DNA of 64,000 nucleotides. It comes from an uncultured bacterium. GTDB taxonomy: Bacteria > Zixibacteria > MSB-5A5 > CAIYYT01. The stretch lies in assembly GCA_963707485.1 (NCBI GenBank), contig CAVPQS010000077.1, positions 646 through 64,645 of the forward strand. Direction: 5' to 3'. The stretch's first letter is position 1, and the number at the start of each line of letters is the position of its first letter. The position numbers were made by a program, and so were the translations under genes. Positions 54,627 through 59,382 of this stretch are shown here, piece after piece. The notes below the pieces were generated by a model. That model ran no database searches, was not told the origin of the DNA, and worked only from the letters and a program-made list of their open reading frames with translations.

Positions 54627-56831
54627 TTGGATCACATCTATCTTGACTACAACGCCACCACGCCGATTCACCCGGAAGTTGCCGAGGCAATGGCCCCATT
54701 CCTGCGCGATCATTTTGGCAATCCATCCAGTTCACACTGGTTTGGCGTGCAGACGCGAAAAGCCGTTGAAACGGCGCGCGCCCGGGTTGCGGCGATGCTT
54801 AGCTGCAATTCGGACGAGATAATTTTCACTTCCGGCGGAAGCGAATCGGACAATTTTGCGATTGCCGGTTACGTACTCAAAAATCGCTCGCGAGGGAATC
54901 ACATCGTGACATCGCAGATCGAGCATCCGGCGGTGCTGGAGATTTGCCGGTACCTTGAGGGGCAAGGATTTCAGGTAACTTACTTGTCGGTAGACGGCAC
55001 TGGAATGGTCGATGTCGAAAAATTGCGCAGAGCACTTAGACCAACGACGATTCTTGTTTCAATCATGCAGGCGAACAACGAGGTCGGCACAATTCAGCCT
55101 GTCAAAGAAATAGCGGAGATTTGTCATGAGCGGGGAGTCGCATTTCACACTGATGCCGCGCAGGCAGTCGGAAAGATTCCAGTCACGATTGCTGCAACGG
55201 GAGCTGACTTAATCACTATCGCCGGGCACAAACTCTATGCACCAAAGGGAATCGGGGCGCTTTACGTTCGTCGCGGGATCGAATTACAGAAACTGATTCA
55301 CGGCGCCGCGCACGAACAGAATCTTAGAGCCGGAACGGAAAATGTGCTCGAAATCGTGGGTCTGGGGAAAGCCTGCGAAGTAGTCGGCCGCGAGATGGCA
55401 AAACAGGCGCCGGTCATGGCGCGACTACGCGATCTACTTGAAAATGAATTGGAATCGCGGCTGCCGCAGTGCCAGATCAATGGCGACCGCGCAAGGCGAT
55501 TGCCAAACACTCTTTCCGTTTCGTTTCCTGGGATTGAGGCAAATGCGATCATCTCGGAATTGGAAGAGGTCGCATGTTCGCCCGGGGCTGCTTGTCACTC
55601 CGACAAAGTGATGATGTCGCACGTACTGGAGGCGATGCAGGTTCCCGTCGAGTATGCGATGGGGACGATTCGGTTTTCGGTTGGCTACATGACGACTGAG
55701 GCTGAAATTCGCGTGGCGGCTGATGCGATTGAGGCAACCATCACCCGACTCGCGCCTTCGGGGATGAGTACAATTCGCGTCGCTGACAGCGATGAAGAAA
55801 TTCGCCTGACAAAGTACACGCATGGACTTGGCTGCGCGTGCAAATTGCGTCCGCAGGCACTTGAGAAGATTCTCGCCCAATTGCCTCGAACTACTGATGC
55901 GAATGTCCTGGTTGGATCGGAGTCATCAGATGACGCGGCGGTTTACCGGTTGAGCGAAGAGATGGCGGTTGTGCAGACAGTTGATTTTTTCACACCGATA
56001 GTCGACGATCCATATCATTTTGGCGCAATCGCGGCGGCCAATGCCTTGAGCGACATTTATGCGATGGGAGGCAAGCCGTTGTTTGCGCTAAGCGTGGTGG
56101 GGTTTCCATCGAATCGGTTGCCGATGCAGGTGTTGCAGCAGATTCTCAAGGGCGCCGCGGATAAGGCTGCGGAAGCGGGTATCAACATCATCGGTGGCCA
56201 CACAGTAGACGACACTGAGCCGAAATACGGCCTTGCGGTCACGGGAATCGTGGATCCCAAAACGATCAAACGCAATAATACTGCACGAGTTGGCGATCTG
56301 CTAATCTTGACCAAACCGATCGGCACCGGTATTATCTCAACGGCAATTAAGCGCCAGATGGTTAATAACGGATTGCGCGATCGCGTCATCAAGATCATGA
56401 GCACGCTAAATGCAAGCGCCGCTGATGTTATATCGCGTTACGATGTGTCGACGTGCACGGACGTTACCGGATTCGGGCTCCTTGGCCATCTCAGGGAAGT
56501 GACTGTCGGAAGCGGCGTAACGGCGCGAGTCGATTCAAAGCGAGTTCCGATCATTGATGATGCAGTTGCACTGGCATCATCGGGTGTTGTGCCGGGCGGA
56601 ACCGAGAACAACCTTGAATACGTGTCTCCCATTGTGACTTGGGGTACAGGTGTTTCGCGCGTTATGAAAATACTGCTGGCAGATGCTCAGACATCGGGCG
56701 GGCTTTTGATGGCCGTCGCGAAGGATCAGTCTGGGGCCATGATGCGCGCGTTAATTGAAAAAGGAGTGGTTGATGCTGCGATAGTCGGAGAAATCACCGG
56801 ACGGGGTGACGGGAAAATCTCAGTCGTCTAA
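54627..56831 (+). CDS. selD: Fusion protein: NifS/IscS-like cysteine desulfurase (N-terminal, about 390 aa) plus selenide, water dikinase SelD (C-terminal)
   Basis: N-terminal half: YLDYNATTP...HKLYAPKGIGALYVR (PLP-Lys region). C-terminal half: LTKYTHGLGCACKLRPQALEKIL (Cys-type SelD active site, compared with E. coli GAGCGCK), then the PurM-like fold DDAAVY...GG..DNTE-like. Confidence 0.85.
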   Translation: MDHIYLDYNATTPIHPEVAEAMAPFLRDHFGNPSSSHWFGVQTRKAVETARARVAAMLSCNSDEIIFTSGGSESDNFAIAGYVLKNRSRGNHIVTSQIEHPAVLEICRYLEGQGFQVTYLSVDGTGMVDVEKLRRALRPTTILVSIMQANNEVGTIQPVKEIAEICHERGVAFHTDAAQAVGKIPVTIAATGADLITIAGHKLYAPKGIGALYVRRGIELQKLIHGAAHEQNLRAGTENVLEIVGLGKACEVVGREMAKQAPVMARLRDLLENELESRLPQCQINGDRARRLPNTLSVSFPGIEANAIISELEEVACSPGAACHSDKVMMSHVLEAMQVPVEYAMGTIRFSVGYMTTEAEIRVAADAIEATITRLAPSGMSTIRVADSDEEIRLTKYTHGLGCACKLRPQALEKILAQLPRTTDANVLVGSESSDDAAVYRLSEEMAVVQTVDFFTPIVDDPYHFGAIAAANALSDIYAMGGKPLFALSVVGFPSNRLPMQVLQQILKGAADKAAEAGINIIGGHTVDDTEPKYGLAVTGIVDPKTIKRNNTARVGDLLILTKPIGTGIISTAIKRQMVNNGLRDRVIKIMSTLNASAADVISRYDVSTCTDVTGFGLLGHLREVTVGSGVTARVDSKRVPIIDDAVALASSGVVPGGTENNLEYVSPIVTWGTGVSRVMKILLADAQTSGGLLMAVAKDQSGAMMRALIEKGVVDAAIVGEITGRGDGKISVV

Positions 56832-57921: not shown

Positions 57922-59382
57922 TTAGTCCTTTAACATGTTCTCAAGCATGTCGACGTAAATGAACTTGTTATCCGGTGATTCCTTGGCAATGAGATTGTGT
58001 TTGTGCAATCCTTCAAGGATCAACTCCATCGCCAGGATCACGCCGCGTTCATCTTCTGTATGATAATGCGCTTTGGCGATTTCTTTAAGACCCGCTATTT
58101 GCAGCAAAGCGGCCTTATAGCTTTTGTAAGACATTTCGTCGGATATTTCGAGCCGTTTACCGGTTGAAAAGTAGTCGGTAACTGCCTCGTAGACATTTTC
58201 GCGCGGTCTCTGGTCGGCGCCGGTTTTGATCTTGCGCGGTTGCGGGAAGTGCTCATTGAAGACCTTCTTCGTGGCTTCGCCTATCAGGTTGAACGCGATG
58301 ATATTCGGTCCCTCAAGCTCGCCTTCGTAAACAAGTTCGACCTTGCCGACGATTGAAGCGACCACGGAGAAGAGGTCGCAAATACGCGGATAGTAGTCCT
58401 TCTCGTTATTGAGCGCAGCACGCCGCTCGACGTTCGAGATCAAGTTCTCGTAGGCGGAAATTGTCAATCGTGCCGACACTCCGGAAGTTTGATCGACGTG
58501 TTCACTTTTGCGGGCCTCGAATGCAATCTGCTCGATGATATCATGAATAATTTCCGGCACTTCGACTTTGCCTGACCGATTGCGCCATGCCTCCTGCAAT
58601 GTAATTTTCTTGGCAGTCTCGGCGTCGTTCGGGTAGTGCGTGTTAATCTGCGAGGCAATGCGGTCCTTCAACGGTGTAATAATATTGCCGCGGTTGGTGT
58701 AGTCCTCGGGATTAGCAGTAAATGCCAGCATCATATCGAGAGGCATGCGAATCGGAAATCCACGAATCTGGAAATCGTTTTCTTCGAGAATATTCAGCAA
58801 TGCGACCTGAATGCGCGGCTGCAAGTCGGGTAGTTCATTAATTGCAAAGATACCGCGATTGGTACGGGGAATAATGCCCCAGTTGATCACGTTTTCATCC
58901 GAAAGATCGAGCCGTTCTTTGACGGCCTTGATCGGGTCCAGATCACCGATCAGATCGGCAACAGAGACATCCGGTGTGGCTAACTTTTCGTGATAGCGCG
59001 ATTCGCGCGCCAACCAGGCGATTTCGAGATTATCGCCGACTTTCGAGATCATTTCCTTCGAGGCCTTTGTGATCGGCATCAAAGGATCTTCGTTTAGGGG
59101 GCTGCCTTTGATGACTGGAACAAACTCATCGAGGAAGTTTACCAACTGTCTGAGAATTCGTGTCTTGGCTTGTCCGCGCAGACCGAGGAGGAGAATGTCA
59201 TGTTTGGACAAGATTGCGTTTTCCAGTTGCGGCAGGACGGTACGGTCGTAGCCGATAATTCCGGGCCAGCGCTGCTGTCCAGAGCGCATTTGGTCAAGTA
59301 GATTTTCGCGCAGTTCGTCCTTGAGGCTGCGCGATTTGTAACCGGAGGCTTTGAGCGCTCCCAATGTCACTGGTAATTGCAT
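57922..59382 (-). CDS. MoxR/ChlI-clade AAA+ ATPase-like protein with atypical Walker motifs
   Basis: Colinear with Mg-chelatase ChlI and MoxR: [15 protein letters not shown] (Walker A-like with A-K-T), [25 protein letters not shown] (Walker B position NE instead of DE, sensor-1 region conserved). 486 aa, with a roughly 200-aa C-terminal extension. Confidence 0.65.
   Translation of the reverse strand: [486 protein letters not shown]

What the first reader, a model, noticed from the sequence alone, without database searches (positions are those of the whole stretch)
56828..59382. AAA+ (MoxR/ChlI-like) ATPase with degenerate Walker motifs paired with a VWA protein
This two-gene minus-strand operon encodes a 486-aa AAA+ protein followed 3 bp later by a 363-aa VWA protein. 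The AAA+ protein is colinear with Mg-chelatase ChlI and MoxR, but its Walker A reads GLRGQAKT rather than GxxGxGK[ST] or GPPGxAKT. Its Walker B position reads I-N-E-L, so the acidic Asp is replaced by Asn. It also carries a roughly 200-aa C-terminal extension with no obvious counterpart. The VWA partner has an intact MIDAS motif (DISHSM...T...ITDG) and a roughly 150-aa N-terminal region of unknown function. MoxR-VWA pairs (RavA-ViaA, NorQ-NorD, CbbQ-CbbO, CoxD-CoxE) act as metal-insertion or remodelling chaperones for a specific client. This pair sits immediately beside the NifS-SelD fusion, with the VWA gene convergent on it, and matches none of those subfamilies by motif. It may be a divergent or catalytically altered chaperone module, possibly acting on a selenium- or metal-dependent client.
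Basis: partly seen in the sequence, partly recalled or inferred. Interest (0 to 1): 0.6.

Follow-up and report, generated by a model that had tools for sequence, protein, structure and literature searches.

The report
Orphan ChlI-like ATPase with VWA partner
This is an ordinary copy of a very widespread but never-studied bacterial gene pair, a ring-shaped ATP-driven motor and its metal-site adaptor protein; the motor carries an unusual but strictly conserved change in its ATP-splitting site, and its position next to a selenium gene is a coincidence.

Summary
The two genes are real and read as described: a 486-aa AAA+ protein (57922-59382, minus strand), then 2 nt, then a 363-aa VWA protein (56828-57919). 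The host is a Zixibacteria MAG.

The pair belongs to a large family kept above 50% identity across many phyla, and at 44-46% in Actinomycetota and Chloroflexota. Databases call it only "magnesium chelatase", "sigma 54-interacting regulator" or "VWA domain-containing protein".

By sequence profile its nearest solved relatives are ChlI/BchI, not MoxR proper. It falls far below every curated threshold for BchI, BchD and cobaltochelatase.

Walker A is not degenerate: the family motif is G-x-[RK]-G-Q-[AG]-K-[ST]. The Walker B Asp-to-Asn change is real and fixed (NE in 335 of 338 sequences). The Walker A Lys and Thr/Ser, the catalytic Glu, sensor-1 Asn, Arg finger and sensor-2 Arg are all conserved, so I read it as an active ATPase with a variant site.

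The VWA gene lies beside the AAA+ gene in 58 of 80 related loci. SelD does so in 1 of 80, and no other neighbour is conserved.

Best reading: a self-contained motor-adaptor remodeller whose client is encoded elsewhere. It is an uncharacterised variant of a known kind, of moderate interest.

The parts
57922..59382 (-). Gene for the 486-aa ChlI-like AAA+ ATPase (the motor)
59161..59184 (-). Walker A / P-loop, GLRGQAKT (residues 67-74)
   Evidence: Aligns to GDRGTGKS of ChlI. The family motif is GxxGQ[AG]K[TS]: 262 sequences have A and 21 have G. It follows strand 63-67 and opens helix 72-83 in the model.
58978..59121 (-). ChlI-type helix-2 insert region, with beta-hairpin 120-134
   Evidence: Colinear with the ChlI insert, including the P-x-N-x-D-P stretch. 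The model has strands 120-125 and 130-134. The motif that follows, EKLATPD...DLIGD.DPIKA, is nearly invariant.
58834..58851 (-). Walker B, IFAINE (residues 178-183), with Asn182 in place of Asp; the N182 codon is 58837-58839
   Evidence: Aligns to LYVDE/LYIDE of ChlI/BchI. It ends strand 176-182 of the model. The motif reads NE in 335 of 338 family sequences, DE in 2 and QE in 1.
58747..58776 (-). Pre-sensor-1 beta-hairpin (residues 203-212)
   Evidence: The model has strands 203-206 and 209-212. Q205 and G208 are invariant.
58711..58713 (-). Sensor-1 Asn224, in [TS]ANPEDY
   Evidence: Invariant. Aligns to the N of GNPEE in ChlI.
58660..58662 (-). Arginine finger, Arg241, in PLKDR
   Evidence: Invariant. 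Aligns to LLDRF of ChlI/BchI.
58468..58482 (-). Sensor-2 motif GVSAR (residues 301-305) in the lid
   Evidence: R305 is invariant and the motif is GVSxR in 265 sequences. It opens helix 302-324. Its assignment as sensor 2 is inferred from position and from the resemblance, recalled from memory, to a G-A-S-P-R-type sensor-2 motif in MoxR proteins.
57925..58335 (-). Family-specific C-terminal extension (residues ~350-486): a helix, then an alpha/beta domain at 399-486
   Evidence: Modelled confidently, with pLDDT 85-93 over residues 400-470. No relative among PDB sequences by profile. No solved structure matches the whole chain: TMq is at most 0.39.
56828..57919 (-). Gene for the 363-aa VWA/MIDAS adaptor protein
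   Evidence: ORF. Pfam VWA_2 scores 36.2 bits against a cutoff of 27. At least 8000 homologues, which also carry precomputed PF27098. Adjacent to the AAA+ gene on the same strand in 58 of 80 loci.
57611..57919 (-). N-terminal helical module with a beta-hairpin (residues 1-103), including the conserved start MRFxYSxWD
   Evidence: Model pLDDT is about 80 over residues 20-90: four helices, strands 72-75 and 78-81, then a long helix. The RFxYSxWD motif is shared with the 699-aa Thermomicrobium partner.
57413..57610 (-). Conserved linker that is modelled as disordered (residues 104-169)
   Evidence: pLDDT 29-43. G107, H109, G116, E120, E124, G131, D132, D138 and others are nevertheless invariant, and the stretch aligns to the Thermomicrobium long form. 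Proposed to engage the ring, by analogy only.
56831..57412 (-). VWA domain (residues 170-363)
57368..57382 (-). MIDAS D-x-S-x-S (D180, S182, S184); the remaining MIDAS residues are T243/T245 (57185-57193) and D271 (57107-57109)
   Evidence: All invariant in 25 homologues. Coordinates checked.

Best explanation
The two genes encode a self-contained motor-adaptor machine of the AAA+/VWA kind.

The 486-aa protein is a ChlI-like AAA+ ATPase of the helix-2-insert / pre-sensor-1-hairpin group. It most likely forms a hexameric ring that binds and hydrolyses ATP. The Walker B Asn-Glu, in place of Asp-Glu, would change how Mg2+ is held and probably the rate or coupling of hydrolysis, without abolishing it.

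The 363-aa protein is its adaptor. By analogy with CobT, its N-terminal helical module would dock on the motor, perhaps on the motor's extra C-terminal domain. Its conserved flexible linker would be gripped by the ring. Its VWA domain would use an intact MIDAS metal site to hold an acidic residue of a client protein, which is then remodelled.

The client is encoded elsewhere and is unknown. The pair behaves like a conserved housekeeping function and not like an accessory or neighbourhood-specific one.

Shown here: the family, its motifs, both folds, the gene pairing and the lack of a conserved third gene. Inferred: ring assembly, ATPase activity, which parts of the two proteins touch, and remodelling of a client.
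For: Genes and coupling: the 2-nt gap and the AGGA before the second ATG.

Motor identity:
- AAA_5 scores above its cutoff.
- ChlI/BchI are the best solved relatives by sequence and by family profile.
- The model shows the canonical strand order, with a helix-2-insert hairpin and a pre-sensor-1 hairpin.

An active site under selection: K73, E183, N224, R241 and R305 are invariant, and residue 74 is always Thr or Ser, across members down to 36% identity. Walker B is NE in 335 of 338 sequences.

Functional pairing: the VWA gene is adjacent on the same strand in 58 of 80 loci from at least seven phylum-level groups. Gene order is inverted in most Bacteroidota, and pairing also holds in Thermomicrobium and Tsukamurella.

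Self-contained and housekeeping-like: no other conserved neighbour. Recurrent neighbours are MurB, PriA, an SDR and an acyltransferase. Both proteins keep about 50% identity across phyla.
Against: - No biochemical data exist for any member, so ATPase activity, ring formation and AAA+/VWA binding are all inferred.
- In other P-loop ATPases an engineered Asp-to-Asn change at Walker B usually cripples Mg2+-dependent hydrolysis (general knowledge). The protein could therefore be a slow switch or mainly an ATP-binding scaffold.
- At least 15 loci with 3 kb or more of flank on both sides have no adjacent VWA gene, and an HMM search finds no hidden divergent one. The partnership may not be obligatory, or the partner may lie elsewhere in those genomes.
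- Both models are only moderately confident (pLDDT 73 and 63), and the helix-2-insert and pre-sensor-1 regions are poorly modelled.
- No client is identified, so 'remodelling chaperone' is an argument by analogy.
Confidence: 0.62

Rival explanations
1. It is the ATP-driven motor (I/D-type subunits) of a class I tetrapyrrole chelatase or dechelatase. It would work with a ChlH/CobN-type subunit encoded elsewhere, as the database name 'magnesium chelatase' implies.
For: ChlI/BchI are the nearest solved relatives by sequence. The best NCBIfam matches are BchD, a putative cobaltochelatase and BchI. An AAA+ protein with a VWA partner is the chelatase I/D logic.
Against: - Scores are more than ten-fold below the curated cutoffs: 33 vs 500, 27 vs 779 and 25 vs 467 bits.
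- The partner has no BchD-type AAA+ N-terminal module.
- No ChlH/CobN-like gene appears among the conserved neighbours in 80 loci.
- A MAG labelled as the green sulfur bacterium Prosthecochloris carries this pair (L054). Such bacteria are expected to have bona fide BchI/D/H (general knowledge, not tested here), so the pair would be an extra system.
- Walker B is NE, not DE.
Confidence: 0.1
2. It is an ATPase-inactive or very slow nucleotide-binding switch or scaffold. The Walker B Asn locks it in an ATP-bound state, and the VWA partner is regulated by nucleotide occupancy rather than by mechanical work.
For: The Walker B Asp, which normally positions Mg2+, is replaced in 335 of 338 members. 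Engineered D-to-N changes usually abolish hydrolysis in P-loop ATPases (general knowledge).
Against: The catalytic Glu183, sensor-1 Asn224, Arg finger R241 and sensor-2 R305 are all invariant across phyla. Residues needed only for hydrolysis, and for sensing it between subunits, would be expected to drift in a pure binder. Two divergent branches still carry DE (P0363, P0296), so the rest of the site is compatible with catalysis.
Confidence: 0.15
3. It is a sigma-54-dependent transcriptional activator, or another nucleic-acid-bound regulator, as the RefSeq (PGAP) name 'sigma 54-interacting transcriptional regulator' implies.
For: This is the RefSeq product name for the Thermomicrobium, Tsukamurella and Rhodococcus members. 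There is a weak Pfam Sigma54_activat match over residues 169-226. The C-terminal alpha/beta domain has a helix/strand order reminiscent of a winged helix (unverified). M. smegmatis MSMEG_5512, a probable orthologue, co-purified with RNA polymerase (PMC7092591).
Against: - The Sigma54_activat score of 18.1 is below its cutoff of 20.2 and covers only the generic Walker B to sensor-1 core.
- The GAFTGA loop is absent.
- Profile matches to NtrC-type structures are at least 9 orders of magnitude weaker than those to ChlI.
- The family is abundant in Mycobacteriales, a group that lacks sigma-54 (general knowledge).
- FLAG-tagged MSMEG_5512 pulled down no DNA.
- The conserved VWA partner has no place in enhancer-binding-protein biology.
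Confidence: 0.03
4. It is an anti-phage or biological-conflict module of the vWA-MoxR type.
For: vWA-MoxR pairs form the regulatory core of several described conflict systems (PMC7159879).
Against: - No PADLOC match for either protein.
- No third component or effector gene.
- Both proteins keep about 50% identity across phyla and sit among housekeeping genes. Defence genes typically show patchy distribution and fast divergence instead.
Confidence: 0.03
5. It is a chaperone dedicated to selenium metabolism or to a selenium-dependent enzyme, working with the adjacent NifS-SelD fusion.
For: In this window the VWA gene converges on NifS-SelD and overlaps it by 4 bp. One Chitinophagaceae locus (L074) also has SelD about 600 bp from the VWA gene.
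Against: SelD is within 8 kb in only 1 of 80 related loci. The genes are convergent and so not co-transcribed. The pair is found in many different housekeeping contexts.
Confidence: 0.02

Closest known systems
Mg-chelatase motor ChlI/BchI with ChlD/BchD (PDB 8osf, 6l8d, 1g8p; BchI-BchD model 2x31)
   Different: - About 18% identity, and NCBIfam BchI and BchD scores 15-20 times below cutoff.
- Walker B is NE, not DE.
- It has an extra ~135-aa C-terminal domain.
- The partner is a short VWA protein with a helical N-domain, not an AAA+-like module fused to a VWA domain.
- No H subunit is linked to it.
Aerobic cobaltochelatase CobS-CobT(-CobN) (bioRxiv 10.64898/2026.07.21.739949)
   Same: The logic is motor-adaptor-effector. 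The adaptor is built as N-domain, disordered linker and VWA part. The N-domain binds extra helices appended to the AAA+ lid, and a shaft enters the ring, gripped by the helix-2-insert and pre-sensor-1 hairpins. The protein here has the same three-part adaptor layout and extra structure after the lid.
   Different: No detectable sequence relationship to CobS or CobT in my searches. The cobaltochelatase NCBIfam model scores 27 bits against a cutoff of 779. No CobN-type gene is nearby. The contact surfaces proposed here are analogy only.
MoxR-type AAA+/VWA pairs: NorQ-NorD, CbbQ-CbbO, RavA-ViaA, CoxD-CoxE
   Different: - The family profile finds no MoxR, RavA, CbbQ or NorQ chain at E<=1.
- AAA_3 and VWA_CoxE score below their cutoffs.
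- Those systems sit beside their clients (nor, cbb and cox operons), whereas this pair has no conserved neighbour.
- They have a canonical DE Walker B (from memory, not tested here).
Mycobacteriales 'magnesium chelatase / sigma 54-interacting regulator' with a long VWA protein; probably M. tuberculosis Rv0958-Rv0959 and M. smegmatis MSMEG_5512
   Same: It is the same family. The Tsukamurella and Nocardia proteins are 44-45% identical over 97-98% of the length, keep NELPDL, and in Tsukamurella are followed by a VWA gene. In Tsukamurella the pair lies downstream of purN-purH, the order I recall for Rv0956-Rv0959.
   Different: The VWA partner is 659 aa, with an insert of about 300 aa.

Membership of Rv0958 and MSMEG_5512 themselves is inferred from synteny, annotation and size. 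It was not tested: no Mycobacterium sequence reached the top 120 hits.

The only published data are incidental. MSMEG_5512 binds ClpC1 but is not degraded by it (PMC10433963). It co-purifies with RNA polymerase but shows no DNA association (PMC7092591).
AAA+ module of archaeal LonB protease (PDB 4zpx, 3k1j)
   Same: It is the second-best solved match by family profile (44 and 43 bits), over the region from the end of the helix-2 insert into the lid (profile positions 145-297).

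Membership tests
AAA+ ATPases of the helix-2-insert / pre-sensor-1-hairpin group (ChlI, MoxR, MCM, YifB, dynein) | AAA+ core with a beta-hairpin inserted in helix 2 and a beta-hairpin before sensor 1 | tested here: met
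AAA+ ATPases (general) | Walker A GxxxxGK[ST], Walker B hhhhDE, sensor-1 polar residue, Arg finger, sensor-2 Arg | tested here: inconclusive
   Four of the five elements are present and conserved: K73-T74, N224, R241 and R305. Walker B is hhhhNE in 335 of 338 sequences. Whether NE supports hydrolysis cannot be decided by computation.
Pfam AAA_5 (PF07728) | Score at or above the gathering threshold | tested here: met
   28.8 bits against a cutoff of 22, over residues 127-241. Homologues carry precomputed PF07728.
BchI/ChlI, Mg-chelatase subunit I (TIGR02030; Pfam Mg_chelatase) | Score at or above the curated cutoff | tested here: not met
   TIGR02030 scores 25.3 bits against 466.95. PF01078 scores 16.6 against 20.3.
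BchI/ChlI, Mg-chelatase subunit I | Works with a BchD/ChlD partner (AAA+-like N-domain, acidic/Pro linker, VWA) and a BchH/ChlH subunit | tested here: not met
   The partner is 363 aa with no AAA+ module. No H/CobN-type gene is among the conserved neighbours of 80 loci. Only gene neighbourhoods were tested, not whole genomes.
BchD/ChlD (TIGR02031) and putative cobaltochelatase (TIGR02442) | Score at or above the curated cutoff | tested here: not met
   TIGR02031 scores 33.3 against 499.55. TIGR02442 scores 26.7 for the AAA+ protein and 17.4 for the VWA protein, against 779.45.
MoxR proper (Pfam AAA_3, PF07726) | Score at or above the gathering threshold, and sequence relatives among solved MoxR, RavA, CbbQ or NorQ structures | tested here: not met
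   AAA_3 scores 15.5 against 27. The family profile finds none of these chains at E<=1. Fold similarity alone is comparable to that with BchI.
VWA domain with MIDAS | VWA fold, and D-x-S-x-S ... T ... D metal-site residues | tested here: met
CoxE-type VWA (PF05762) | Score at or above the gathering threshold | tested here: not met
   13.1 bits against 26.4.
Sigma-54 enhancer-binding proteins (PF00158) | Sigma54_activat score at or above cutoff, a GAFTGA loop, and a C-terminal DNA-binding HTH | tested here: not met
   18.1 bits against 20.2, covering residues 169-226 only. GAFTGA is absent. The C-terminal domain has no sequence relative in the PDB, and its DNA binding is not testable here.
vWA-MoxR conflict/defence systems (Kaur et al. 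2020) | A third conserved component plus variable effector genes, and a match to defence-system models | tested here: not met
   No conserved third gene. No PADLOC hit.
The uncharacterised family itself (ChlI-like 'NELPDL' ATPase with a PF27098-type VWA partner) | Full-length similarity, the motifs G-x-[RK]-G-Q-[AG]-K-[ST], NELPDLxxRxQV, [ST]ANPEDYT, PLKDR and GVSxR, and an adjacent VWA gene beginning RFxYSxWD | tested here: met
   93% identity to the nearest database member, 52-63% to members from other lineages (Bacteroidota, Acidobacteriota, Ignavibacteria) and 44-46% to Actinomycetota and Chloroflexota. All motifs are present. The VWA partner is 100% identical to a Zixibacteria MAG protein carrying PF27098. 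PF27098 is absent from the local Pfam copy and could not be scored directly.

The most novel reading that the evidence does not exclude
The pair is a previously unrecognised housekeeping remodelling machine, conserved from Bacteroidota and Zixibacteria to Mycobacterium. It would use a MIDAS adaptor to grip, and an Asn-Glu Walker B motor to slowly release or reshape, a component of a core cellular machine. Examples would be RNA polymerase, ribosome-assembly intermediates or a protease complex. This would be a bacterial counterpart of the eukaryotic Rea1/midasin principle. The fixed Asp-to-Asn change would define a distinct catalytic regime within AAA+ ATPases.
Probability: 0.12. Interest if true: 0.75.

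Novelty: new variant of a known kind. Interest (0 to 1): 0.4.

Why it matters
AAA+/VWA pairs are a recurring way for cells to insert metals or reactivate enzymes, as in Mg and Co chelatases, NorQD, CbbQO, CoxDE and RavA-ViaA. Each characterised pair was understood through the client encoded next to it.

This family is at least as widespread as those. It probably includes an M. tuberculosis operon. Yet it has no linked client and no study, and it carries three different misleading database names.

Two points make it worth an experiment.
- Natural Asn-for-Asp at Walker B, with every other catalytic residue kept, is a test case for what the Walker B Asp contributes in AAA+ rings.
- The strong conservation of both proteins argues for an important function that is still unknown.

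For this particular window nothing is special. It is a typical family member, and the selenium connection is not real.

Tried and rejected
- **SelD/selenium link:** I searched 80 related genomic loci by tblastn with the window's NifS-SelD, AsnB, glucan phosphorylase and ORF217. The result was 1, 0, 0 and 0 hits. Rejected.
- **A third component:** all-against-all clustering of neighbour ORFs found only shadow ORFs and lineage-specific housekeeping genes. Genes lying between the pair differ from locus to locus. Loci without a VWA gene hold no hidden divergent VWA by HMM.
- **Defence system:** PADLOC gave no hits.
- **Riboswitch or leader RNA as a clue:** Rfam found nothing in 59300-59700 at E<=1, and only one tRNA in the whole window. 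Promoter and terminator scans were not above shuffled background.
- **AFDB50 fold search:** the library is not installed.
- **Literature:** searches for Rv0958/Rv0959, the COG numbers I recalled for such proteins (COG4867, COG1239), the PGAP product names and atypical Walker B motifs found no functional study of the family.
- **Direct confirmation that Rv0958/MSMEG_5512 are members:** the last homology search, with the Tsukamurella protein as query, was filled by Tsukamurella, Rhodococcus, Williamsia and Gordonia hits and listed no Mycobacterium. The link stays inferred.
- **Source names for distant representatives:** these gave only 'magnesium chelatase'.
- **A MoxR/ChlI tree:** not built, because reference sequences cannot be obtained. 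Ranked profile scores against PDB chains and the curated model cutoffs were used instead.

Full report
**1.

The window has two minus-strand ORFs at exactly the stated coordinates: 57922-59382 (486 aa) and 56828-57919 (363 aa). The junction reads AAGGAC-TAA-AC-ATG. Two nucleotides separate the stop from the start, and a Shine-Dalgarno-like AGGA sits inside the end of the first gene, which suggests co-translation.

The 3' end of the VWA gene overlaps by 4 bp the 3' end of a plus-strand NifS-SelD fusion (Aminotran_5 + AIRS + AIRS_C). The other flank is a divergent alpha-glucan phosphorylase. The wider window holds ordinary housekeeping genes: nucleotide-sugar enzymes, HisRS, PdxS/PdxT, a histidine kinase and asparagine synthase.

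The VWA protein is 100% identical to a protein of a Candidatus Zixiibacteriota MAG.

**2. The motifs are read in the right register.**

Three independent phmmer alignments to solved ChlI/BchI chains put GLRGQAKT on GDRGTGKS, and [11 protein letters not shown] on GILYVDEVNLL or GYLYIDECNLL. A family-profile alignment does the same.

In the AlphaFold model the P-loop follows strand 63-67, N182-E183 end strand 176-182, and N224 follows strand 216-222. That is the canonical AAA+ topology. Coordinates of every motif were checked by translation.

**3. The family.**

- *Size and conservation.* Both proteins have at least 8000 database homologues, and the 120th best hit is still about 60% identical. 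An exhaustive HMMER scan of 1.84 billion cluster representatives gives 612 clusters at E<1e-30.
- *Taxonomic spread.* A scan of one genome per species returned at least 599 loci. The best 80 come from Zixibacteria, Bacteroidota (including cultured Chitinophaga, Olivibacter, Mucilaginibacter, Hymenobacter, Daejeonella and Phaeocystidibacter), Ignavibacteria, a Prosthecochloris MAG, Rhodothermales, Acidobacteriota, Eisenbacteria and Planctomycetota. All are 49-65% identical to the window protein.
- *More distant members.* Proteins at 44-46% identity occur in Thermomicrobium roseum, Nocardia, Tsukamurella and Nonomuraea. Members are abundant in Mycobacteriales.
- *Names.* Source names are only generic: 'magnesium chelatase (subunit I)', 'sigma 54-interacting transcriptional regulator', 'ATP-binding protein' and 'VWA domain-containing protein'.

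**4. Placement among AAA+ proteins.**

- *Pfam.* Only AAA_5 passes its threshold. Mg_chelatase, Sigma54_activat and AAA_3 (MoxR) all fall below theirs.
- *NCBIfam.* The best matches are BchD, a putative cobaltochelatase and BchI, at 33, 27 and 25 bits. Their cutoffs are 500, 779 and 467.
- *Family profile against PDB sequences.* The ranking is ChlI (49 bits), archaeal LonB (44 and 43), a second ChlI chain (40) and BchI (39), then NtrC-type and MCM proteins at marginal E-values. No MoxR, RavA, CbbQ or NorQ chain appears at E<=1.

So this is a separate branch of the helix-2-insert / pre-sensor-1-hairpin group. It is closest to ChlI/BchI and is not an orthologue of any characterised subfamily.

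**5. The ATPase site.**

Among the 287 family sequences with a readable P-loop, Walker A is GxxGQAK[TS] in 262 and GxxGQGK[TS] in 21. At least some of the four exceptions are likely frameshifted predictions of the kind seen. The Lys and Thr/Ser are kept, and Ala at the third-Gly position is a tolerated variant. Walker A is therefore not degenerate.

Walker B is NE in 335 of 338 sequences. Two divergent branches have DE (P0363 'LCIDELPVL', P0296 'LYIDELPDL') and one has QE.

E183, sensor-1 N224, Arg finger R241 and sensor-2 R305 (GVSxR) are invariant down to 36% identity, including the Actinomycetota and Chloroflexota members.

Asn and Asp codons differ by one nucleotide (genetic code). Asn is nevertheless kept across phyla while the rest of the hydrolysis apparatus is retained, which means the Asn is selected for and is not a sign of decay. 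I infer an active ATPase with altered Mg2+ handling or kinetics. A slow-switch role is the main rival.

**6. Accessory regions.**

- *AAA+ protein.* The lid helices (277-345) are followed by a helix (359-378) and a confidently modelled alpha/beta domain (399-486). This extension of about 135 aa has no sequence relative in the PDB.
- *The 'disordered' linker.* It is highly conserved and aligns to the 699-aa Thermomicrobium partner, as does the N-terminal RFxYSxWD motif. The long forms in Chloroflexota and Actinomycetota differ by an insert of about 300 aa.
- *MIDAS.* The residues are invariant.

**7. Genomic context.**

- The VWA gene is adjacent on the same strand in 58 of 80 loci. It is downstream in Zixibacteria, Acidobacteriota, Eisenbacteria, a Planctomycetota MAG and some Ignavibacteria, and upstream in most Bacteroidota.
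- It is also downstream in Thermomicrobium and Tsukamurella.
- At least 15 loci with 3 kb or more on both sides lack it, with no hidden divergent copy.
- SelD is nearby in 1 of 80 loci, and the window's other neighbours in none.
- Clustering all neighbour ORFs finds no further conserved gene. The next real cluster occurs in 13 of 80 loci and is MurB, followed by PriA, an SDR and an acyltransferase.
- Genes inserted between the pair differ from locus to locus.
- Neither protein matches a defence-system model.
- The leader has no Rfam element.

The module is self-contained, and its client, if any, is encoded elsewhere.

**8. Mechanism proposed.**

By analogy with CobS-CobT(-CobN), NorQ-NorD and CbbQ-CbbO, I propose a motor-adaptor machine. 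In those systems a hexameric ring grips a shaft of the VWA adaptor with its helix-2-insert and pre-sensor-1 hairpins, an adaptor N-domain docks on extra lid helices, and the VWA side holds the effector or client.

Here the ring would be the ChlI-like ATPase. The adaptor's N-module would dock on the motor, perhaps on its C-terminal domain. The conserved linker would be the ring-engaged element, and the MIDAS would bind an acidic residue of a client.

Only the parts list, the motifs and the pairing are shown. Assembly, contacts, activity and client are inferred.

**9. Relation to known work.**

No paper in the library characterises the family.

In Tsukamurella the pair lies downstream of purN-purH. 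From memory this matches M. tuberculosis Rv0956-Rv0957-Rv0958 ('possible magnesium chelatase')-Rv0959. If so, the incidental data on the M. smegmatis orthologue MSMEG_5512 apply:
- it binds ClpC1 with micromolar affinity but is not degraded (PMC10433963);
- it co-purifies with RNA polymerase but brings down no DNA (PMC7092591).

This membership is inferred and was not tested. The PGAP name 'sigma 54-interacting transcriptional regulator' is almost certainly wrong. The Pfam score is below threshold, there is no GAFTGA loop, and the family is abundant in a group that lacks sigma-54 (the last point is general knowledge).

**10. Verdict.**

The locus is a typical member of a very common but unstudied ChlI-like AAA+/VWA family, defined by a fixed Asn-Glu Walker B. 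That makes it a new variant of a known kind and of moderate interest. The interest belongs to the family as a whole, not to this window.

Noticed in passing
window 63594-63859 (within ORF 63405-63872, minus strand): An 81-bp tandem repeat, 3.3 copies at 94% match. It gives 27-aa repeats (…VPAKAIVEKRVKFAQSQDHVLQTPGQ…) in a 155-aa ORF with no significant Pfam match.
   Followed up: partly
window 54627-56831 (+): A 734-aa NifS-SelD fusion (Aminotran_5 + AIRS + AIRS_C) with a Cys-type SelD motif (GLGCACK). Its 3' end overlaps the VWA gene's 3' end by 4 bp. SelD is near the AAA+/VWA pair in only one other locus (L074, 5320-6357).
   Followed up: partly
P0363 and P0296 (divergent family representatives); P0262: Two divergent branches of the family keep the canonical Walker B Asp-Glu ('LCIDELPVL', 'LYIDELPDL'), and one sequence has Gln-Glu. 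They may mark the ancestral state before Asn was fixed. P0363 also has a large extra insert after the P-loop helix.
   Followed up: partly
L081 6427-8526 (Thermomicrobium roseum); L082 6364-8343 (Tsukamurella): In Chloroflexota and Actinomycetota the VWA partner is a long form of 659-699 aa. An insert of about 300 aa lies between the shared N-terminal RFxYSxWD motif and the part homologous to window residues ~59-363.
   Followed up: partly
L081, L082, and hits P0396-P0514: RefSeq/PGAP labels this family 'sigma 54-interacting transcriptional regulator' even in Mycobacteriales, alongside 'magnesium chelatase' and 'ATP-binding protein'. This is a probable systematic misannotation that comes from overlapping AAA+ Pfam hits.
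   Followed up: partly
L007, L012, L015, L019, L021, L023, L046, L048, L051, L053, L055, L080 and others: At least 15 loci with full flanks have the AAA+ gene but no adjacent VWA gene. They are mainly Rhodothermales, Balneolaceae, Saprospiraceae and some other Bacteroidota. Whether the partner is elsewhere in those genomes or lost could not be checked.
   Followed up: partly
P0107 (628 aa homologue): It carries an internal duplication of the Walker B to sensor segment ('…[29 protein letters not shown]…' appears twice). This is probably an assembly artefact rather than a real variant.
   Followed up: no
window 59623-62199 (+): An alpha-glucan phosphorylase with an N-terminal DUF3417, transcribed divergently from the AAA+ gene across a 240-bp spacer. 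It is not conserved next to the pair elsewhere.
   Followed up: no
window 51770-52423 (-): A 217-aa protein with a signal-peptide-like start, a C-terminal CarboxypepD_reg domain and a borderline cupredoxin (Copper-bind) match.
   Followed up: no
window 8455-8528 (+): A single tRNA gene, which is the only Rfam match at gathering threshold in the whole 64-kb window.
   Followed up: no
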